Part shown: in pieces, positions 12,213 to 42,204 of the stretch | How positions within the stretch are numbered: the first letter of the stretch is position 1 | Layout of the letters: each line of letters starts with the position of its first letter | Sequence record: PP400781 | Origin: Escherichia phage FL20 | Length of the DNA stretch: 64,000 nt | Reading direction: 5' to 3' (one strand) | Notes under the pieces: model-generated | The model's input: only the letters and a program-made list of their open reading frames with translations | What the model was told of the DNA's origin: nothing | Databases searched by the model: none | Program-made: the position numbers and the translations under genes

Positions 12213-12800
12213 CTAAATATCTAACCAAGACAAGTCAGATCCGCCCAAGATTTTTTCGACGGCGGATCTATTTTCTTGATGATATAAGTTAAAACATGGT
12301 ATCCCATGTCTACGGGCAACATAAACAGCAATTCGAGTTCCTCCCGAAACGATTCCATTAACTTCTTTCGCCCAAAATAACACACAATCTACAGGATCAT
12401 CAAGTGTCTCACCTAAAACTTGAGCAACATTTCTAGAAAACAGATTTTGCATGTATAACGGTATAGAACGAGGATTATCATAAACTTGTTCTAATTCATC
12501 CATCGCCAGATTTTTTTGTTCTAAGGTTTGCCATGCAATCACATCATGACCGTTATGCTTGTGGTCATAAAACTTCCAATTTGGAATGAAAATTTTTCTA
12601 TAATCTGGATCGTAATATTTCATGAAAGCATTGTCCATACCGTAAGCCCCTCCAGAATGCGCTACAACGCGATTTTCTGACAATACCCTCCCAATGGTAC
12701 TAGCCATTATCAAAATGTCGCTAGGCGCTTTTCTAGAGCCTATTAAAGCACATCTACGAAGTGGTTTTACTCCAAATAGATCTTGTAACTGGTCAAACAT
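12213..12800 (-). CDS. DprA/Smf-like (SLOG-fold) protein
   Basis: 195 aa; motif HSGGAYGMD corresponds to the DprA Rossmann motif S-G-x-A-x-G-x-D; occupies the locus where T4 carries rnlB. Confidence 0.55.
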   Translation of the reverse strand: MFDQLQDLFGVKPLRRCALIGSRKAPSDILIMASTIGRVLSENRVVAHSGGAYGMDNAFMKYYDPDYRKIFIPNWKFYDHKHNGHDVIAWQTLEQKNLAMDELEQVYDNPRSIPLYMQNLFSRNVAQVLGETLDDPVDCVLFWAKEVNGIVSGGTRIAVYVARRHGIPCFNLYHQENRSAVEKILGGSDLSWLDI

Positions 12801-27107: not shown

Positions 27108-27591
27108 ATTTTGCTAAATCATTGCAATATTTTAGTGCCTTAGTTTGAAATTCTGCGCTGTTAAGTTCTTCATAACGGTCATAATCACCGTTTAATGCTG
27201 CCTTTCTTGCTTCTTGCTCTATCTGCATGTCAGACATGATAATACAGCGATCCCGTGCTTTCATCTTCTCAAGTTGTATAGACTCTTCTTTCTGCTTGCG
27301 CAATTCTTCTTGACGCTTCTTTTCTTCTCGTGCTTTCTCTTCCCGCGCTTCTTTGATTGCATCCTTGAACATCTGCGTTTGTGGTGCTAAACCAACTTTA
27401 ACTCGATCTACGTCTCGACGTTCCATTTTAGAAATAAAGCATGATTCGATCTGATCATCACTTGCATATGCTGTTTTACATTCACGAAGCAAGAAAACCG
27501 GATCTGATTTAGCATTCATCATAGCTTCCATGTTGGCACAACCAGTAAGCATGAATGCAGCCGCAAGACCAATCAGTTTAATCATTTTCAT
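27106..27591 (-). CDS. putative lipoprotein
   Basis: N-terminal signal peptide with lipobox LTGC (MKMIKLIGLAAAFMLTGC); charged coiled-coil-like C-terminal half. Confidence 0.6.
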   Translation of the reverse strand: MKMIKLIGLAAAFMLTGCANMEAMMNAKSDPVFLLRECKTAYASDDQIESCFISKMERRDVDRVKVGLAPQTQMFKDAIKEAREEKAREEKKRQEELRKQKEESIQLEKMKARDRCIIMSDMQIEQEARKAALNGDYDRYEELNSAEFQTKALKYCNDLAK

Positions 27592-28412
27592 TTAGTCACC
27601 TCACCGAAAATTGTAAATTGTCTACGATTCTCATCGCCGAAAGATTCTACTACGTCGTTTACCTTGACGCAAGTCCCGCGCGGTAAAATTACTTCACATT
27701 CGCAAGGATTCCATGCAATTGACCCAACAACAAAACCTTTATGATCTTTTACGTCAATTACCCATGATACATTACAAGAATGTTGCATCTTTCCGGTCAT
27801 TGATTCATATCGATTCTCACAATAAAGGCTAGTGCTGTTTGATAGCCATCCTCCAAAGATGATCGGTGTCATGCTGGTAGATACAAAGTTTTTAAAGGTA
27901 AACTCCTTATATTCAATGATACGCTCTATTGTCTGAATGTCAAGATGTTGACCGCGATAAAGAGTACCGTTTAACTTTTCGGTTTTATCCATGACGCAAT
28001 CCATCAAATCGACAATCTCTGATATCTCATCGGTCATGTCTTCTTCCCCTAAGAGAGCACCATTTACCCATTCGTATTGTTCAGATACATAATCACAGAT
28101 TGCATTATATTCTGCTGGTGTTATGTTGTTATGTTTGTAATGTTTGAATACATTATCTCCAAAGTCTTCGGAGTGTACTTCATACATCACATTAATGATT
28201 TTCTTGACAAATCCATAATCTTGTGTCTCACGCTCAAGGAAGCGGATAACCTTCACATAATCATCAAAGTTAATCTGATCACTGATCATCTCAGTGATCA
28301 TGTAACCATTAATCCCCTCAATGTCATATGTTTCGATGTAATTATCCATACGTTCCATCATTGATTCGCGTGATTCTTCTGAAATACGAAAATCCTGTAA
28401 TTTCTTGAACAT
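27588..28412 (-). CDS. ADP-ribosyltransferase, Alt/Mod-family paralog (274 aa)
   Basis: R-S-ExE catalytic signature: LYRGQ ... FKNFVSTS ... CECEVILPRG, parallel to the Alt C-terminal domain encoded just upstream. Confidence 0.7.
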   Translation of the reverse strand: MFKKLQDFRISEESRESMMERMDNYIETYDIEGINGYMITEMISDQINFDDYVKVIRFLERETQDYGFVKKIINVMYEVHSEDFGDNVFKHYKHNNITPAEYNAICDYVSEQYEWVNGALLGEEDMTDEISEIVDLMDCVMDKTEKLNGTLYRGQHLDIQTIERIIEYKEFTFKNFVSTSMTPIIFGGWLSNSTSLYCENRYESMTGKMQHSCNVSWVIDVKDHKGFVVGSIAWNPCECEVILPRGTCVKVNDVVESFGDENRRQFTIFGEVTK

Positions 28413-28490: not shown

Positions 28491-30542
28491 TTACATTTTA
28501 AATTTATCTGGCATTGCGTCTACAGATACCAGATCAGCGATAAGCTGACGTAGAGTTGCCTTATCTGCTTTCTTACGTTCGGTTTTAGCTTCGGTAATAA
28601 AGCTGGAGAAAGACAGGTCAGAAGCAGGTTTAATAACACCTTCACGGATGAATGCATCACCGTCCGCGATCATCTCGCCAGATTCTTGTAATGCTGCCAG
28701 TTCATTTTTGTTCATAATATGTGCCTCAATGTAATAAGTTTCTTGTGAATCCGTCGATGCCGTAGCACGAGTTACCGTATCAAAGGATAACACAACACCG
28801 CGAGGAAGTAAAATCTCGCATTCTTTGTAAGCAAATGCTTTGTTACCTACTGGCAAGACAGGGATGTTTTCCGCGCCAGCAATGGAGAAAGCAACATTAG
28901 CGCCACCTTCACCACGAGAGCCAGCCATAGAATCAACACCAGCAACGGCACTAGCCACGTTTGCATTCCAGCCGCCAAAAATGTTAGGTGCAAGGGAAGT
29001 GCTCACATAGTTTTTAAAGTAAAACGCTTTTTGCTTACGTGCAGTTTCCCACATTTGCGACCGGAAGTCCATACCACGATACAGAATAGTACCCGGATCA
29101 AGTTTAACTCCATAGTTGGAGAAGGCATTATCCAGTGCATCACACATCTTGACCAATTCTTCTGGATCTGCGATGCCTTCAAACTCTTCCAGCTTACGGT
29201 CGGTTAGGAAGTTGTTCATATTGATGTATGCTGCATCGGCATATTCGCTCAACACAAAACCTTCCGCGCCCGGCAGATCAAGATCAATATCTGCCATCAT
29301 TTCACCCATGTTGCTAGCAATTGCTTCAAACATACCGGAAGCAACATTACGTAGGGCATCGGTTTTAATCTGGGTGATGTGACTACGCAGCATTTCAGCT
29401 TTTACATCTGCTGGCATAGACTGGTCTACTCGATCCATTGCCAGGGCGGTGATCTTGTTTTCGAATACTTCCTCGCTCATGATTTCTTTTAAGCGTTTGA
29501 TTGATGCTGCGATAACTTCCGCAGACAATGGATCATATTGATCCTGAACTTTTACCAGTTCGCTTACTGCGTATTTTGCATCGGCTTCGCTTTCAAAAAT
29601 AGTACGCATGAAACCATAGCGAGTGATAATATCACTTGTCCAGTCATTCAGAGAACGAGCGGTTGAACGTTCTAAGGCTTGACGGTCAATCAGAGTATTA
29701 AACTGTTTCTTAGGTTCTGCTTCGGTGATATCTTCTTCCGGTTTAAGATTAATTTTTTCTGGATGATTCACATAGTCGCTGTTATAGGTCGCTTGAGTTT
29801 TCAGCATTTCTTCTTTAGTCAAACGAGATTTAGCCGCTACGCGTTGTTCTGCTTCCGCGTTTCGTTCTTCTTCTGACACAAGACTAGCCGCATATGCCTC
29901 ATCTTTAGTCAGAGATTCACCAGTAGCCTTAGATACCCAGCGATCACCTAAATCACTTTCTACTTTAGTGAACAAGGATTCATCAAGTTTAATCCCTTTA
30001 ATCTTATCAATCGCCATCCCGCGACGCTTGACAACAACTAAAGCGATCTTTTTGCTGGTCATTACTTCCTGCTGGAATACTTCAAACTTCGGTGTACGAC
30101 GCACCAAACGCTCTATAACGCGCTTAACCAGTTCGGTCTTACCTTTCATGCGGGATACGTTAAAACGGAACATAACAGCGTCTAATTGCGCTTTACGGGC
30201 TGTTTCCATAACCACATCAAAAGCACTTGACATAACTGCAATCGGGTTATCGCCTAGACCATTTTTAAGCTGTACAATACGACCGCTTTTGTTCATTTCG
30301 CACAGTACAACATGTGCGGTCTTGTCACCCATACGAATGATTTTAGGTGTTTTGTTGGTGAAGTTACAAAGACGGACAATCACATCTTTATCGCGTGTCT
30401 GTACTGCAAAAAGCTGTTTAGGATTCTGCTTAGGCTTTAAGCACTGTACCGGGGCAATACTACCAAAGTTTTCTTCCTCTTCCGTCAACAGCCATTTCTC
30501 GAAAGATTCAATCATTAGATCGTCGATTTCTAAGTTAAACAT
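28491..30542 (-). CDS. alt: Alt ADP-ribosyltransferase (injected internal head protein)
   Basis: 683 aa, T4 Alt is about 682 aa; C-terminal ART motifs LYRGMDF ... FKNYVSTS ... ECEILLPRG; synteny (after gene 54). Confidence 0.85.
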   Translation of the reverse strand: MFNLEIDDLMIESFEKWLLTEEEENFGSIAPVQCLKPKQNPKQLFAVQTRDKDVIVRLCNFTNKTPKIIRMGDKTAHVVLCEMNKSGRIVQLKNGLGDNPIAVMSSAFDVVMETARKAQLDAVMFRFNVSRMKGKTELVKRVIERLVRRTPKFEVFQQEVMTSKKIALVVVKRRGMAIDKIKGIKLDESLFTKVESDLGDRWVSKATGESLTKDEAYAASLVSEEERNAEAEQRVAAKSRLTKEEMLKTQATYNSDYVNHPEKINLKPEEDITEAEPKKQFNTLIDRQALERSTARSLNDWTSDIITRYGFMRTIFESEADAKYAVSELVKVQDQYDPLSAEVIAASIKRLKEIMSEEVFENKITALAMDRVDQSMPADVKAEMLRSHITQIKTDALRNVASGMFEAIASNMGEMMADIDLDLPGAEGFVLSEYADAAYINMNNFLTDRKLEEFEGIADPEELVKMCDALDNAFSNYGVKLDPGTILYRGMDFRSQMWETARKQKAFYFKNYVSTSLAPNIFGGWNANVASAVAGVDSMAGSRGEGGANVAFSIAGAENIPVLPVGNKAFAYKECEILLPRGVVLSFDTVTRATASTDSQETYYIEAHIMNKNELAALQESGEMIADGDAFIREGVIKPASDLSFSSFITEAKTERKKADKATLRQLIADLVSVDAMPDKFKM

Positions 30543-31143: not shown

Positions 31144-31662
31144 TTAGTTATTTTTTAATTGCTCATCTTGCAATAGGGCAATCACATGCTGGCGATGTTC
31201 TTCCGATTGAGGCACACCGAAAAAGTTTGTTTTGTAGAAATACTCTAATCGGTCTTCTCGTGTGCTCTCTTCCATCATGATCGCGGGTAGTCCGAGATTT
31301 CGGAAACGTCGCTTTTCTGCTGGCGTAAAATCACTGTAATACAACATAGAATCATCATTACAAGCAATGCTAAACTCATCCTTCATAAAGGAGAATATTG
31401 CGTTTAAACGCTGTTTACCGTCCACGATTTCGATCTCATAGCGAGAGCCATCATCAATCTTAGCCATTGCGATAGCACCAACCGGAAAATCATTAATCAG
31501 GTTTTCGATAAACATACGTTTGTTTTCGGTGTCCCATACTAAAGGACGCTGATAATCTGGGTTCATGTTGATATAGCCATCTTCTAACCATGCATCATAA
31601 ACAGAGATGACAAAGTTTTTAGTATTGGTATAGTAACGGCGTTTAGGCGTTAAACGGTTCAT
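31144..31662 (-). CDS. DUF262 / ParB-like (GmrSD N-terminal domain-like) protein
   Basis: Track ORF 31144-31698; Met13 start (RBS AGGAG) gives 172 aa; motifs YQRPLVW...LI..FPVG and the DGQQR-type box IVDGKQRL. Confidence 0.7.
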   Translation of the reverse strand: MNRLTPKRRYYTNTKNFVISVYDAWLEDGYINMNPDYQRPLVWDTENKRMFIENLINDFPVGAIAMAKIDDGSRYEIEIVDGKQRLNAIFSFMKDEFSIACNDDSMLYYSDFTPAEKRRFRNLGLPAIMMEESTREDRLEYFYKTNFFGVPQSEEHRQHVIALLQDEQLKNN

Positions 31663-31663
31663 G

Positions 31664-31996
31664 TTATAGTCTCCTGAATGGATCATCACGTAAATCAATA
31701 TCTTTTAAGAACTCATCCCATGAATGCCGGATATTGTTCTTAATTCTCCAGATAAGCGCAGGGATTGAACGCTCTCCCATCTGGAAGTATGGATCATATG
31801 ATCCGTATGCCCAATATGCTACTACAATTCCACAATCAGCGCAATAGTATTCTATTTCACTTGCTGGCGACCAAAGTCCATCAATATGATCGGTGATCTT
31901 GCTTTCGATGTTATGGCTATGACAATCAGGGCAACGGATGCAATGACCTTGTTTATCGTAATTTGACGTTAGCGAATACTTAAACAATCTCATCAT
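31664..31996 (-). CDS. zinc-ribbon protein (two CxxC pairs)
   Basis: 110 aa; CIRCPDC ... CADCG; translationally coupled within the operon. Confidence 0.6.
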   Translation of the reverse strand: MMRLFKYSLTSNYDKQGHCIRCPDCHSHNIESKITDHIDGLWSPASEIEYYCADCGIVVAYWAYGSYDPYFQMGERSIPALIWRIKNNIRHSWDEFLKDIDLRDDPFRRL

Positions 31997-32709
31997 AGAT
32001 CCTTATTTGCTTCAAATACTGCCTTTGCGAATCCTCGCGGGGTAAGTGACCTGATAGTCTTTGTTTTCGTTCCTTTCCCGCCTAGCTTAGAATGCTGTTT
32101 ACTGTACCCTTTATTAATCTGCAAAGGTTTCTTTTCTGGCATTATAAAGCCTTGTCCGGTCCATAAGCAAGTCTTTTTTGGGTACATATCACGGGCGGCA
32201 ATATACTCAGGAAACGTAGGATGCTTATCATCTTCCGGCAAATAACCGCCATATTCCCACGGATGGAACATATAATCAGGCTTACGCCACATGCTAGAGA
32301 TAACGCTTACAGGATTCTCTATCATGTAGGGAACTCCTAGCCATTCACCCAAATAAGCGGTTATTTTAGCTGCCCTTACATCATGAACTTGAATCAATGG
32401 TCCTTGTTCTAGTTTCTTTCGTTCAAAGTGCGCAGCGCCACTAACAGCTAAATTGGTGCACGGTGGGAATGCAAAGATAATATCCGGTTTCCCCCATTCA
32501 AGGTCCATTGCTCTTTCCAGCCAATTCAAATCAATCCAGGTGTTTACATAGGTAATGTTTTGATGTTCAAATCGGGTATTATATTTTTTGTATGTACCGT
32601 GGTCGCCATCATCAGCATTAAAGCAGATCACCTTATGACCTGCTTTAGCCCATTCTAGCCCCATTATCCCCGATCCGTCAAAGTTGCAGAATATTAATTT
32701 TTGTTTCAT
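31993..32709 (-). CDS. C5-cytosine methyltransferase catalytic core lacking a target-recognition domain (238 aa)
   Basis: Motif I-like FCNFDGSGIMGLEWAKAG, motif IV FAFPPCTNLAVSG (Pro-Cys catalytic dipeptide), motif VI MIENP, motif IX-like TIRSLTPRGFAKAV; too short for a canonical enzyme with TRD. Confidence 0.6.
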   Translation of the reverse strand: MKQKLIFCNFDGSGIMGLEWAKAGHKVICFNADDGDHGTYKKYNTRFEHQNITYVNTWIDLNWLERAMDLEWGKPDIIFAFPPCTNLAVSGAAHFERKKLEQGPLIQVHDVRAAKITAYLGEWLGVPYMIENPVSVISSMWRKPDYMFHPWEYGGYLPEDDKHPTFPEYIAARDMYPKKTCLWTGQGFIMPEKKPLQINKGYSKQHSKLGGKGTKTKTIRSLTPRGFAKAVFEANKDL

Positions 32710-37978: not shown

Positions 37979-38158
37979 TTACATCACAATCACGCCAGCC
38001 GTAGAAAGTTGATGTTTCAACTGAGCATTTTCTGCTACCGTCAAATCAATGATTTCTTGTGACGCTGCAATCATATAACCATTGGTGATATTGTTTTGCA
38101 TCAGTTCAATGGTTTCTTCGTTGTAGCGGATTTTAGCGATGATTTCGTTGAAGTTCAT
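37979..38158 (-). CDS. small hypothetical protein (59 aa from Met23), PeSL-driven
   Basis: Track ORF 37979-38224; the first 22 codons are PeSL sequence (same artefact as at 36769). Confidence 0.5.
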   Translation of the reverse strand: MNFNEIIAKIRYNEETIELMQNNITNGYMIAASQEIIDLTVAENAQLKHQLSTAGVIVM

Positions 38159-38234
38159 TTTTGATTCTCCTAGTTCGTTTCGGTATGTGTGTATTATAGG
38201 GGATCGGTGATCCCCTGTCAACAACTTTTCTGAA
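38159..38234 (-). promoter_or_regulatory. PeSL cassette copy 10 (GGGGATCggtGATCCCC palindrome)
   Basis: As copy 2. Confidence 0.75.
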
Positions 38235-38711
38235 TTATTTTTCTTGATGCTCGCGCTCGTACTTTTCGAAATAAAATTCTACTGGCTGGTCATGAATTGA
38301 CAGCAAGCCAAAGCGTTTAGCCGCTCGCAATCCCATATTGCGCTGAATGTACTTCTGGAAGTTCTCGCGTATACACTTACGCCAGTATTCTAAGCCCATA
38401 CAGCTTTTATAAAGATTGCATTGCACACACGCCGGATTCATGTTATCAAGTATATCATGCTCCGGTTTATGCATTCCTACAACCTTATACTTCCACGATC
38501 CATCATCATTACGGGCAATTCGTCCATTTTCATCATAGACTACCTTTGAGCGTCGCAATACTGGTTTGATGTGGTCTGCGTGCCAGCGATCCCCTAGTTC
38601 CTCGCCACAATAGGCGCAACGTCCACCATATTTCATTTTCAGGATCTGGCGTTGCTCTTTCTTTGACAATTTTTTAGGTTTAGGGGCTTTCGCCCCTTCA
38701 TTATCACACAT
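38235..38711 (-). CDS. HNH homing endonuclease
   Basis: 158 aa; CAYCGEEL ... HADHIKP ... N ... CVQCN (Cys-x2-Cys / His-Asp-His / Cys-x2-Cys HNH signature); inserted next to the ligase gene. Confidence 0.7.
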   Translation of the reverse strand: MCDNEGAKAPKPKKLSKKEQRQILKMKYGGRCAYCGEELGDRWHADHIKPVLRRSKVVYDENGRIARNDDGSWKYKVVGMHKPEHDILDNMNPACVQCNLYKSCMGLEYWRKCIRENFQKYIQRNMGLRAAKRFGLLSIHDQPVEFYFEKYEREHQEK

Positions 38712-40206
38712 CGAATACCTCTTTTACTGTATTTGCAGTGGTCTTGTCGTAGCGAATACGTTTGATGATTGGGAGAAATAAAGAGAACTCCGGTTCATCT
38801 TCTTTACGTGATTTGCTGCGGATATACCCGTTGCATGTCATCTCAATGACTTTTCCAATCAGGTTATGACGGTCAGACCATAACATTTCTCTGTCAAGTT
38901 CATTTCGACGGTCAAACGGAATCACACGTTCAATACCATCATCGCCTTTTTCGGTTGTGGTGTCGGTCAATCCCGATCCGGTGTTAGTCATCATTCGTCC
39001 GCACGCACTACGGACAGTAAAACCTCCTACCTTATTAGGATCTTTACTATGCGGATATACATCAACAATTTCCGCGTCGAAGTCAATCACTTCTTTAAAT
39101 TTAACCTGATCTTTACTGCGACGATCTTCAAATACACCATGTAAATTTTTAAGGATAATACCTTCTAAGCCCATGTTTACATAGCGATGATATACTTCGC
39201 GAGCTTCATCGATATTGTTAACTACAGTATTTTCGATTATCTGAACACGAGGATCGTTAAGTTCTTCAACAATCTGTTTTAGTTCTTCGAATCGATCTTT
39301 ATATTGCTTCGTTGCTTTCTCGTTTCCGTAATACACATCACGGTCGATAACATCCCAGACAGTGTAAACAATACATTGGGCTTCTTCTTTTGGAATAGTT
39401 CCTTTCAGTGATTTGTTGAGGATACCATTTCCGGTCTGACGGTCTGCAACAACGGATTCTTTTACTGCTTCCGCTACTGGCGTTAATGGCATTTCCTCTT
39501 CTTCAAATATCCATGACAGAGTACCATCATAAACGCTTTCAACGAAGTTCTGCGCTGGTGTTTGCGAAAGGGTAGGCATATATACCAATTCGCCATCTAG
39601 AACAATTCCACGGCCTCGTAGACGCTCTAAAACCGCAAACAAATCATCAAGTCCCTGATAGGTATTACCTGAGCGGGTATAGATTGCTAATGTTTCCCCG
39701 TCAATATCAGCCATACCACGAGCGCCATCGCTTTTAAGTTGTGCATACGCCGGATACTTGATATTAGCAATAGTCTTATCAGAACATGACGATGCAAGGT
39801 GACACGGTTGCTGGGGGATCAGTTTCTTCCATACCTTGTTTGCAGTGGTAGCGGAACAACCACATTCCAGATCACGATTCAGAACCATCATTGCAACTTT
39901 AGCATCATCTTCTGACAAGCAAGTCAGAGTATCGGTAACTAGCTGTAATGCTGCGTTACCAGTTACTTGACGCGTGGCAAGTTTATTTTTAAAGACCTGT
40001 AATGCACCGGATAAAGACAATACAGACGAATAGCGAGATGGTTTATCGTATTTCTTTACGCCAAACGTAACCTGTTTGCAATATGCCAGATAAAAGCATT
40101 CTTTCAGTGTTTCATTGCTTGCAGATTCTTTCAGGATCTTTTCTTTCAGCGATGTTTTGTCGGTCGCTGCAAGCTGGTTAATGATATTAAGAATTGACAT
40201 TTTCAC
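38704..40206 (-). CDS. 30: ATP-dependent DNA ligase gp30
   Basis: 500 aa; blocks LATRQVTGNAA, LKSDGARGMA (KxDG adenylation motif), VLDGELVY match T4 DNA ligase. Confidence 0.93.
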   Translation of the reverse strand: MKMSILNIINQLAATDKTSLKEKILKESASNETLKECFYLAYCKQVTFGVKKYDKPSRYSSVLSLSGALQVFKNKLATRQVTGNAALQLVTDTLTCLSEDDAKVAMMVLNRDLECGCSATTANKVWKKLIPQQPCHLASSCSDKTIANIKYPAYAQLKSDGARGMADIDGETLAIYTRSGNTYQGLDDLFAVLERLRGRGIVLDGELVYMPTLSQTPAQNFVESVYDGTLSWIFEEEEMPLTPVAEAVKESVVADRQTGNGILNKSLKGTIPKEEAQCIVYTVWDVIDRDVYYGNEKATKQYKDRFEELKQIVEELNDPRVQIIENTVVNNIDEAREVYHRYVNMGLEGIILKNLHGVFEDRRSKDQVKFKEVIDFDAEIVDVYPHSKDPNKVGGFTVRSACGRMMTNTGSGLTDTTTEKGDDGIERVIPFDRRNELDREMLWSDRHNLIGKVIEMTCNGYIRSKSRKEDEPEFSLFLPIIKRIRYDKTTANTVKEVFDV

Positions 40207-40666
40207 CTCGTTTTGTTAAACGTTCACGAATATCATTGAGGATACTACAAAATTCCGATTCAGTCAATATAGTCTTTAACGGATCAGTTCCACCTATGCT
40301 ATGACGCAATTTCTTATTTCCGGTAGAGAGTAATGCTTTACAAAATTCTGGGTTATTCCGTGCCATCGTAACAAATGCCAGATGTACCAGTCTGTAATAA
40401 TGCTCACTCATTCGATGAATAGGGCGACCCTGAAAATATAACATGTGATTCTCAATCTTTTCAGTTCTTCCGGTTCTTTTTGCTTTGCCACCGTGCATCA
40501 AAAAGATTTCTCTTTGTCTCTGAGGGTTCTTAAATCTTAGCCCCTGTAAAAATCCTTCTGTGCTGTTAATATCGCAACCAAATAGACGGAATGGTCTTTT
40601 ATTGAAGTTACTCAATTCACCCGATGGATAAGGTCCACCCGCATAGATATCAATTTCAGAAGTCAT
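40187..40666 (-). CDS. NADAR-like (YbiA/DUF1768 family) protein, candidate ADP-ribose hydrolase
   Basis: 159 aa; N-terminal LSNF and STEGFLQGLRF align with YbiA FSNF and TSEHYFQAQKF; C-terminal ALLSTG...GGTD; remembered-motif match only. Confidence 0.5.
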   Translation of the reverse strand: MTSEIDIYAGGPYPSGELSNFNKRPFRLFGCDINSTEGFLQGLRFKNPQRQREIFLMHGGKAKRTGRTEKIENHMLYFQGRPIHRMSEHYYRLVHLAFVTMARNNPEFCKALLSTGNKKLRHSIGGTDPLKTILTESEFCSILNDIRERLTKRGENVNS

Positions 40667-40820
40667 TGAAACTAATCTCGCTAATCATAGAGAACGGATC
40701 ATAATCGTCATGAGGAATATCGATAGTAATCGAATGAGGATTTACCCATACACCAAACTGGTCTTCTTCGGCGAATACTTCGGTATGGATTTCGTGGATG
40801 TTTACATTCATAGTTTTCAT
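40656..40820 (-). CDS. small hypothetical protein (about 54 aa; approximate)
   Basis: ATG with RBS AAGGA; stop overlaps the NADAR-like start. Confidence 0.3.
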   Translation of the reverse strand: MKTMNVNIHEIHTEVFAEEDQFGVWVNPHSITIDIPHDDYDPFSMISEISFNDF

Positions 40821-40902
40821 AATAAAATTCCTTAATAATCAATAACTTACAAAATCATATAGCCAAAATATAGGCGGGATTATTACCCGCCGTTTAAAAT
40901 CA

Positions 40903-41226
40903 TTAACCGTAAACTACCACAATATTCTGTTTGTGTGTTACAGTCCATTTCAGGTCGATCTCTTCTTCCTTCTTAACGCCGTTAATAACGTCTGGATGAG
41001 GAACTTTATTAAGTTTCCCATGAGGAAGCAACACAGTCTTGCCCAGCAATTCTTTATCAACGTTATCGCCGATATCAATAATCTTACCGACTAAAGGAAT
41101 CTCTCCCATAGTTCGTTTTTGCTCGATGATAATACCAAAATCGCTCTTTACTTCGGTCCCTGCGCTTTCCGCTTTAGCTTCAATGATCACATAGTCACCA
41201 AGTGCTTTAGGAGTTTTAACGGTCAT
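40903..41226 (-). CDS. 31: co-chaperonin gp31 (GroES-like)
   Basis: 107 aa; GroES-like size; synteny between ligase region and cd. Confidence 0.8.
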   Translation of the reverse strand: MTVKTPKALGDYVIIEAKAESAGTEVKSDFGIIIEQKRTMGEIPLVGKIIDIGDNVDKELLGKTVLLPHGKLNKVPHPDVINGVKKEEEIDLKWTVTHKQNIVVVYG

Positions 41227-41262
41227 AATTTTCTTACCTCTTCAATTCATCTCAATAATAAA

Positions 41263-41881
41263 TTATTTATATTTCGCGACCTTTGGATTTCGCCGCAGAC
41301 CGGAATGTATTTGCGCTATACAACAATAAGAAACATTAAACATATCAGCTATAATTTGCTTCTTAACTTTTCCTTTAAGCCGCATTATTTCTTCGACTTG
41401 CGCATTTGTCAGTTTTGCCCGTGAGTGGTTTTCACCGACATTGTTATTGAGTCCAGTTATAAATGAATGTCTCATATTTTCTAGTAAGGTTACTATTTCT
41501 AGATTCCACACAAAATTGCAGGTTTTTACACCATTGATGTGATTAACCTCAAGTCCGGTAAACGTCTCCTAGAAATGCATTTGCTACAAGTCGATGTATC
41601 TTTTCGGCTTTAACTGAGATTTTACCATTGTCTTTTTGTTTTGACAATGTTGAATAATAATATCCATATCGGTCTAAAATTGGTTTTATTATTTTACCAG
41701 CACGTTTTTGTTGTACGAGCTTAATATTACCGGGAGAAACTTCTCTATAAAATTCGATACTTCGGTCAATAGATCTCAATCTACCATAATTAGAGATTTC
41801 ATACCACGGATAACCTACAGCTTGTCTCCATTCTTCCGGCGCTGGTAATATGATATTATCATCTTTTGTTTCCATTGTCAA
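41263..41881 (-). pseudogene. HNH homing endonuclease (NUMOD4 + HNH_3 type) disrupted by a frameshift
   Basis: N-terminal ORF 41549-41881 carries the NUMOD4-like motif WRQAVGYPWYEISNYGRLRSI and ends ...HRLVANAFLGDVYRT*; the HNH motif LEVNHINGVKT...NLEIVT...ENMRH continues in another frame (track ORF 41263-41511 begins with an alternative start). Confidence 0.65.
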
Positions 41882-42204
41882 CTGCCACCGTACATTTCGA
41901 CGATCTGCGCTGGAGTCAGCCCGTCTACATTAATCAGACTATCAAGCCCAAAACTACGAAAACCTTCAACTGCAATTTCATATACTGGCAAAGATGTTTC
42001 TGATTCTTTACGCGGTTTTTCAACATTCGGAACTAACCACTTTTCGTATGTTTCGAAAGGCATCAGTGCCGGATCTCTCGTGGCGATCATCTCGCGGACA
42101 GTACCATCTTTCTTAGTAAACTGCAAAGAGTGAGTACCGACCGAAAACATTTTCTTTAGTGCTTCACGAAGTGCGATATTATCAATTTGTTCAGTCATTA
42201 TCAA
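41878..42204 (-). CDS. hypothetical protein (108 aa)
   Basis: ORF coupled to neighbours. Confidence 0.5.
   Translation of the reverse strand: MIMTEQIDNIALREALKKMFSVGTHSLQFTKKDGTVREMIATRDPALMPFETYEKWLVPNVEKPRKESETSLPVYEIAVEGFRSFGLDSLINVDGLTPAQIVEMYGGS

What the first reader, a model, noticed from the sequence alone, without database searches (positions are those of the whole stretch)
40187..40666. NADAR-like candidate ADP-ribose hydrolase coupled to DNA ligase
The ORF overlapping the ligase start shows the YbiA/NADAR-type motifs (LSNF, STEGFLQGLRF). NADAR enzymes remove ADP-ribose from guanine bases written by DarT-type toxins. Together with Alt and a second ART in the same window, this would give the phage both ADP-ribosylation writers and a candidate eraser. 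Its position next to a DNA-repair enzyme fits reversal of DNA ADP-ribosylation.
Basis: partly seen in the sequence, partly recalled or inferred. Interest (0 to 1): 0.65.

Follow-up and report, generated by a model that had tools for sequence, protein, structure and literature searches.

The report
Phage anti-DarT NADAR enzyme (AdfN/gp30.3)

The parts
40187..40666 (-). adfN / gene 30.3 orthologue: 159-aa single-domain phage NADAR, a predicted guanine-ADP-ribose glycohydrolase
40556..40558 (-). Codon for E37, equivalent to T4 AdfN E36 and P. nicotianae NADAR E43 (coordinates the distal ribose)
   Evidence: Pairwise alignment. Invariant in the family alignment, 152/156. In register with the E of YbiA and PnNADAR in the profile-to-PDB alignment. 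T4 E36A is impaired (PMC11825919).
40535..40537 (-). Codon for R44, at the position of T4 AdfN K43 / PnNADAR K50 / E. coli C7 NADAR K95 (adenine and phosphate coordination). It is Arg here instead of Lys.
   Evidence: The family column is K 141, R 11 of 156. Arg arose several times and is fixed in the window's clade. C7 NADAR K95R is active in vitro but fails to rescue in vivo (PMC11543638).
40301..40303 (-). Codon for H122, the last-strand histidine that marks phage (gp30.3) NADARs. YbiA has Glu and DarT1-linked NADARs have Asp at this position.
   Evidence: His in 154/156 family members. Aligns with T4 H123. The subfamily rule is stated in PMC11125620 and PMC11543638.
40190..40261 (-). C-terminal alpha-helix (residues about 136-158). 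It corresponds to the helix whose loss in the RB69 allele reduces activity, and it is intact here.
   Evidence: AF2 secondary structure shows H136-158. The alignment runs to the T4 C-terminus. The RB69 truncation data are in PMC11825919.
40656..40820 (-). Upstream 54-aa ORF of unknown function. Its stop codon overlaps the 30.3 start by 11 nt (ATGACTTCTGA).
   Evidence: phrog_15277 at E=5e-41. Annotated in JSE. Junction sequence.
38704..40200 (-). Gene 30, ATP-dependent DNA ligase. Its start overlaps the 30.3 stop by 14 nt. It is a neighbour, not shown to be a functional partner.
   Evidence: PF01068 at E=2.8e-22 and phrog_114 at E=2.9e-141. 41% identity to T4 ligase. JSE annotation.
40873..40891 (-). 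Terminator-like GC hairpin plus T-run after gene 31. It lies upstream of the tightly packed string orf54 - 30.3 - ligase - HNH.
   Evidence: Consensus scan. This is a pattern match only.

Best explanation
The ORF is the Krischvirus (RB49/JSE-like T4 relative) orthologue of T4 gene 30.3, now called adfN. It encodes a minimal, core-only NADAR-fold enzyme. By homology, it hydrolyses the N-glycosidic bond between ADP-ribose and guanine N2 in phage DNA. The host DarT1 toxin of the DarTG1 defence system attaches that ADP-ribose during infection. Removing it restores normal guanine so that phage replication can proceed. Shown here: family membership, the NADAR fold, and retention of the catalytic Glu, the clade-specific His and the C-terminal helix. 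Inferred from the T4 orthologue: the substrate (guanine-ADP-ribose on DNA), the biological role (anti-DarTG1 counter-defence) and expression alongside ligase and its neighbours. The tight overlap with ligase reflects compact, inherited gene order in the 30.x region, not a shared pathway.
Against: No Krischvirus copy has been tested, and I found no paper linking Krischvirus to DarTG. Identity to T4 AdfN is only 38%. The phosphate- and adenine-coordinating Lys is Arg (R44). In E. coli C7 NADAR, K95R kept in-vitro hydrolysis but lost in-vivo rescue from DarT1 (PMC11543638). T4 AdfN appears to need a T-even-specific context for full activity (PMC11825919). The T4 neighbours 30.1, 30.2 and 30.4-30.9 are absent from this window. 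PF08719 alone is sub-threshold.
Confidence: 0.8

Rival explanations
1. It is an active NADAR whose physiological substrate is something other than DarT1-modified phage DNA. Candidates are guanosine-ADP-ribose on RNA, adducts from other guanine-directed ART toxins (YarT- or pierisin-like), or soluble ADP-ribose derivatives used in host immune signalling.
For: T4 phage NADAR also hydrolyses G-ADPr on RNA in vitro (PMC11833690). [quoted passage not shown] The K-to-R change and 38% identity leave room for a shifted specificity. Fusions to Metallophos, LRR and ZapA domains in metagenomic homologues show the domain is used in varied contexts.
Against: The only genetically demonstrated role for this clade is anti-DarTG1 (PMC11825919; 10.1101/2025.11.20.689424). 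The active-site Glu and His are unchanged. T4 NADAR was weaker than C7 NADAR on RNA substrates (PMC11833690).
Confidence: 0.12
2. One reading: it reverses ADP-ribosylation written by the phage's own Alt and second ART, making phage-driven modification of host proteins reversible.
For: Alt (28491-30542) and an Alt-like ART (27588-28412) are in the same window. T4-like phages were noted to express NADARs as early genes along with ARTs (PMC9503650).
Against: Both ARTs match the protein-targeting exoenzyme family PF03496. Every NADAR activity in the papers I read is on nucleobase N-glycosidic linkages (PMC11543638, PMC11125620, PMC12945103). The genes lie 10 kb apart and do not form an operon. The T4 adfN phenotype is fully explained by host DarT1 (PMC11825919).
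Confidence: 0.03
3. It works with DNA ligase in a coupled repair pathway, with de-ADP-ribosylation followed by nick sealing. This would explain the overlapping reading frames.
For: A 14-nt overlap between the 30.3 stop and the ligase start, with a Shine-Dalgarno sequence inside 30.3. The 30.3 and 30 genes lie in the same neighbourhood in several T4-like genera.
Against: Direct abutment occurs only in Krischvirus. Elsewhere 1-4 unrelated genes intervene, or no ligase lies within 2.5 kb (Aeromonas phage 25, phiM9, VH7D). The upstream orf54 and the downstream HNH gene overlap their neighbours in the same way, so overlap is the local packing style. Cleaving the guanine-N2 glycosidic bond yields intact DNA with no nick, as described for NADAR in PMC11543638.
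Confidence: 0.05
4. It is an attenuated or inactive copy because the catalytic Lys is replaced by Arg.
For: R44 sits at the K43/K50/K95 position. C7 NADAR K95R fails in vivo (PMC11543638). T4 K43A is impaired (PMC11825919).
Against: K95R retains hydrolysis in vitro (PMC11543638). Arg recurs independently in 11 of 156 family representatives and is fixed across the Krischvirus clade, including a 68%-identical relative, which argues that it is tolerated. The ORF is intact and nearly invariant in 59 phage genomes, and changes against JSE are mostly synonymous.
Confidence: 0.08

Closest known systems
T4 gp30.3 = AdfN (anti-DarT factor NADAR), Johannesman et al. 2025, Nat Commun (PMC11825919)
   Same: Same Pfam family (PF08010), the same length class and a core-only NADAR fold. 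Full-length alignment at 38% identity. The catalytic Glu, the clade-specific His and the C-terminal helix are conserved. It sits in the same genomic region, between gene 31 and gene 30.
   Different: Arg replaces Lys43. It directly abuts ligase because 30.1 and 30.2 are absent. The host phage is a Krischvirus rather than a Tequatrovirus. It has not been tested experimentally.
DarG1 / DarT1-associated NADAR antitoxins (E. coli C7, G. lovleyi; PDB 8bat)
   Different: DarG1 has Asp in the last strand, an N-terminal extension that forms a DNA-binding channel, and a darT1 gene next to it. This protein has His, no extension and no adjacent toxin. T4 AdfN cannot substitute for DarG1 in uninfected cells (PMC11825919, PMC11125620).
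E. coli YbiA (PDB 2b3w), YbiA-type NADAR
   Different: YbiA-type enzymes are defined by Glu in the last strand. They act on riboflavin intermediates and sit in a LexA-controlled operon. This protein has His there and is a phage gene.
AdfN-Bas32 and AdfN-Bas60 (T5-like and Vequintavirinae phage NADARs)
   Same: Phage-encoded NADARs that counter DarTG1 (PMC11825919).
   Different: They come from other NADAR branches, were acquired independently, and neutralise DarT1 without phage infection. The window protein belongs to the T4-superfamily gp30.3 branch.

Membership tests
Phage NADAR / gp30.3 / AdfN family (Pfam PF08010) | Scores above the curated threshold of the family HMM | tested here: met
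   130.1 bits against a cutoff of 36, E=6.5e-38, covering profile positions 2-138 of 138.
Phage NADAR / gp30.3 / AdfN family (Pfam PF08010) | Full-length similarity to the characterised member, T4 AdfN | tested here: met
   38% identity over 151 aa, E=8e-30. tblastn also finds T4, T6 and RB68.
Phage NADAR / gp30.3 / AdfN family (Pfam PF08010) | Histidine in the last beta-strand (Glu in YbiA, Asp in DarG1) | tested here: met
   H122 in KKLRHSIGG. His in 154/156 family members. Rule taken from PMC11125620 and PMC11543638.
Phage NADAR / gp30.3 / AdfN family (Pfam PF08010) | Catalytic Glu (T4 E36) | tested here: met
   E37, an invariant column.
Phage NADAR / gp30.3 / AdfN family (Pfam PF08010) | Phosphate- and adenine-coordinating Lys (T4 K43) | tested here: inconclusive
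   It is Arg (R44). Basic character is kept. Arg is seen in 11/156 members. K95R in C7 NADAR is active in vitro but not in vivo (PMC11543638).
Phage NADAR / gp30.3 / AdfN family (Pfam PF08010) | Intact C-terminal helix (truncated in the weakly active RB69 allele) | tested here: met
   Helix 136-158 in the AF2 model. The alignment reaches the T4 C-terminus.
Phage NADAR / gp30.3 / AdfN family (Pfam PF08010) | Guanine-ADP-ribose glycohydrolase activity on DNA, and protection from DarTG1 during infection | not testable with these tools
   Needs biochemistry and phage genetics. Demonstrated only for the T4 orthologue.
NADAR superfamily (YbiA fold) | PF08719 above its gathering score | tested here: not met
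   15.6 bits against 35.1, E=0.02. NCBIfam NADAR anti-phage model scores 14.3 bits against 240. Pfam models this branch separately as PF08010, so this failure does not exclude superfamily membership.
NADAR superfamily (YbiA fold) | Five-helix core with flanking small sheets, matching solved NADAR structures | tested here: met
YbiA-type NADAR subfamily | Glu in the last strand | tested here: not met
   The residue is His (H122).
DarG1 (DarT1-associated, BC4488-type) NADAR antitoxins | Asp in the last strand, an N-terminal DNA-binding extension, and an adjacent darT1 toxin gene | tested here: not met
   His instead of Asp. The 159-aa protein is core only. The neighbours are orf54 and DNA ligase.

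The most novel reading that the evidence does not exclude
The Krischvirus clade carries a natural Lys-to-Arg variant at the phosphate-binding catalytic position and lacks the T4 30.x neighbours. It might therefore have a shifted substrate range or efficiency compared with T4 AdfN. Examples would be a different DarT1 allele, RNA guanosine-ADPr, or independence from the unknown T-even cofactor. Comparing it with T4 AdfN could help explain why T4 AdfN works only during T-even infection.
Probability: 0.12. Interest if true: 0.35.

Novelty: already known. Interest (0 to 1): 0.15.

Why it matters
The gene shows that RB49/JSE-type coliphages carry the same enzymatic counter-defence against DarTG1 that was demonstrated in T4. 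That is useful for annotation, because most GenBank records still call this gene "hypothetical protein". It also helps predict which therapeutic T4-like phages will resist DarTG1-bearing E. coli. It adds no new mechanism. The one open point is whether the naturally occurring Arg at the catalytic Lys position changes efficiency or specificity.

Tried and rejected
1. PF08719 (NADAR) and the NCBIfam NADAR anti-phage model, run directly on the protein, were both far below threshold.

2. Single-sequence phmmer against the PDB put a D-alanine carrier-protein ligase on top (7vhv, E=7e-4). Neither the family-profile search nor either fold search reproduced it, so I rejected it as chance.

3. The word-indexed homologue search returned only 7 proteins. 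The exhaustive representative search was needed to get a deep alignment.

I rebuilt it without T4.

5. I looked for T4 30.1, 30.2, 30.4-30.9 and rIII in the window, as possible AdfN cofactors or synteny markers. tblastn found none.

6. I looked for a sigma-70-type promoter between the gene 31 terminator and orf54. Nothing exceeded the shuffled expectation.

7. I searched for literature on Krischvirus plus DarTG and found none. The supplements of the AdfN paper are not held. The Toxins 2024 table lists T4, KpV477 and RL38J1 as phage NADARs but no Krischvirus.

8. A dN/dS-style check against JSE found only 5 differences, 4 synonymous and 1 not. That is too few for statistics. A scripted version failed because the JSE locus file was not mounted.

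Full report
**Observation**

The window holds an ATG-to-stop ORF of 159 aa at 40187-40666 on the minus strand.

The ORF is packed tightly against its neighbours.
- The stop codon of an upstream 54-aa ORF (40656-40820) overlaps the 30.3 start by 11 nt.
- The 30.3 stop (40187-40189) lies 14 nt inside the DNA ligase gene. The ligase ATG is at 40198-40200 and is preceded by GAGGTG.
- The ligase stop in turn overlaps an HNH endonuclease gene.
- A terminator-like hairpin at 40891-40873 follows gene 31, just upstream of this string.

**What the genome is**

A megablast of 38000-42000 finds 59 phage records at 95-99% identity. All are RB49/JSE/ECD7-type T4 relatives of the genus Krischvirus. The protein is 100% identical to that of phage MIZ6 and 99.4% identical to JSE, where it is annotated "gp30.3 conserved hypothetical protein".

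**Family assignment**

- Pfam gives PF08010 (Phage_30_3) at 130.1 bits, E=6.5e-38, over the whole model. PF08719 (NADAR) reaches only 15.6 bits against a gathering score of 35.1.
- PHROGs gives phrog_652 at E=9e-45.
- The NCBIfam NADAR anti-phage model is far below its cutoff.
- Against T4 gp30.3, taken from the T4 record, BLASTP gives 38% identity over 151 residues, E=8e-30.

**What is already published**

- T4 gene 30.3 was renamed adfN (anti-DarT factor NADAR). Deleting it sensitises T4 to the DarTG1 defence system. The purified protein removes ADP-ribose from DarT1-modified DNA. E36A and K43A impair it, and so does the C-terminal truncation found naturally in RB69 (PMC11825919).
- Ahel's group showed that T4 phage NADAR hydrolyses guanosine-ADPr but not thymidine-ADPr, and that it does not rescue DarT1 toxicity in uninfected cells (PMC11125620).
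- It also acts on guanosine-ADPr in RNA, more weakly than the DarT1-linked enzyme (PMC11833690).
- The 2026 summary table lists cytidine-ADPr reversal only for the NADAR and YbiA families (PMC12945103).
- A transposon screen independently found adfN to be conditionally essential under DarTG1 (10.1101/2025.11.20.689424).
[quoted passage not shown] YbiA has Glu and DarT1-linked NADARs have Asp at that position.

**Tests of the window protein against those features**

An exhaustive HMMER search found 967 representative clusters at E<=1e-3. In an alignment of 156 domain sequences, the window protein keeps every near-invariant position:

| Position | Family count (of 156) |
|---|---|
| N20 | 151 |
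| E37 | 152 |
| Q41 | 146 |
| H122 | 154 |
| G125 | 153 |

E37 aligns with T4 E36, and H122 aligns with the phage-signature histidine. The alignment runs to the T4 C-terminus, so the RB69-type truncation is absent.

There is one departure. T4 K43 is Arg here (R44). T4 K43 is equivalent to P. nicotianae K50 and E. coli C7 K95, which coordinate the adenine and phosphates. The family column is K in 141 and R in 11 sequences. Most Arg-bearing sequences have Lys-bearing nearest neighbours, so the change arose several times. It is fixed in the window's clade, including a 68%-identical relative. In C7 NADAR, K95R kept in-vitro hydrolysis but lost in-vivo rescue. The effect of R44 here is therefore open, though its recurrence suggests it is tolerated.

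**NADAR relationship**

- A profile of 80 family members searched against PDB sequences puts YbiA (2b3w, E=2.9e-4) and P. nicotianae NADAR (8bau, E=0.1) on top, with the E..Q..K motif in register.
- All 79 members of the second alignment hit PF08010, and 38 of them also give weak PF08719 hits, the best at 3.5e-6.
- AlphaFold2 with this alignment gives mean pLDDT 96.0 and pTM 0.90.
- Foldseek agrees, at 2.4e-5 and 2.3e-3.

**Context claims**

Alt (28491-30542) and a 274-aa Alt-like ART (27588-28412) are present. They lie 10 kb away and match the protein-targeting exoenzyme family. None of the papers I read shows a NADAR acting on protein ADP-ribose. The writer/eraser pairing is therefore unsupported, and the demonstrated writer for this clade is the host DarT1.

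Adjacency to ligase was checked in seven genomes:

| Phage | Arrangement |
|---|---|
| Krischvirus (window, JSE) | 30.3 directly abuts ligase |
| T4 | 30.2 and 30.1 lie between 30.3 and ligase |
| Acinetobacter phage MD-2021a | one gene lies between them |
| RB16 | four genes, including a homing endonuclease |
| Aeromonas phage 25 | 30.3 sits in a tRNA cluster, no ligase within 2.5 kb |
| Sinorhizobium phiM9 | next to a DinG-like helicase |
| Vibrio VH7D | next to a deoxyribonucleotidase and gp46/47 |

Of the T4 cluster from rIII to 30.1, only 30.3 and 30 are detectable in this window. The abutment is best read as what remains of an ancestral gene order in a variable region. NADAR chemistry also releases ADP-ribose from guanine N2 and leaves intact DNA, so no nick needs sealing (PMC11543638).

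**Conclusion**

It is the Krischvirus orthologue of AdfN, a published phage counter-defence enzyme. I put about 0.95 on family and fold membership and about 0.8 on the anti-DarTG1 guanine de-ADP-ribosylation function.

The residual uncertainty comes from three things:
- the 38% identity to T4 AdfN;
- the Lys-to-Arg change;
- the unexplained dependence of T4 AdfN on a T-even infection context.

Novelty is low. The family, fold, activity and biological role are all in the literature, and only this clade's copy is untested.

Noticed in passing
window 41263-41881 (minus): Two short ORFs lie between gene 31 and gene 31.1, where JSE has no insert. One is 110 aa with a NUMOD4 motif (PF07463, E=2e-12). 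The other is 82 aa with no Pfam hit. Together they look like a split or degenerate homing endonuclease.
   Followed up: partly
window 38235-38711 (minus): A 158-aa HNH endonuclease (PF01844; phrog_2118 at E=8e-55) whose start overlaps the ligase stop by 8 nt. It is probably a homing endonuclease sitting just downstream of gene 30.
   Followed up: partly
window 27588-28412 (minus): A second ADP-ribosyltransferase of 274 aa lies immediately downstream of Alt. It corresponds only to the C-terminal catalytic part of Alt (phrog_15144 at E=1e-196; PF03496). Its target is unknown.
   Followed up: partly
window 31144-31698 (minus): A 184-aa protein with a GmrSD_N (DUF262) domain (PF03235, E=7e-20). 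It matches only the first 183 of 417 positions of phrog_1583, so it is either a truncated GmrSD-like nuclease or an N-domain-only protein. That is unusual for a phage gene.
   Followed up: no
window 31993-32709 (minus): A 238-aa protein that matches a phage DNA methyltransferase family (phrog_757, E=2e-89) but has no Pfam hit at E<=0.01.
   Followed up: no
window 12213-12800 (minus): A 195-aa DprA-like recombination-mediator protein (phrog_768 at E=1e-60; weak PF02481 hit).
   Followed up: no
window 41878-42204 (minus): The gp31.1 orthologue carries a WYL_2 Sm-like SH3 domain (PF10902, E=1.3e-9).
   Followed up: no
metagenomic homologues P0064, P0045, P0005, P0013, P0014, P0018, P0031, P0067: The gp30.3 domain also occurs fused to other domains: a calcineurin-like phosphoesterase, BspA-type leucine-rich repeats and a ZapA domain. 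It also occurs as a tandem duplication, and at the C-terminus of proteins of about 470 aa whose N-terminal region of about 320 aa has no Pfam hit.
   Followed up: partly
whole window (not searched): T4 also encodes AdfA (61.2) and the newly reported macrodomain AdfM (tk.4), which acts against DarTG2 (10.1101/2025.11.20.689424). I did not check whether this phage carries homologues.
   Followed up: no
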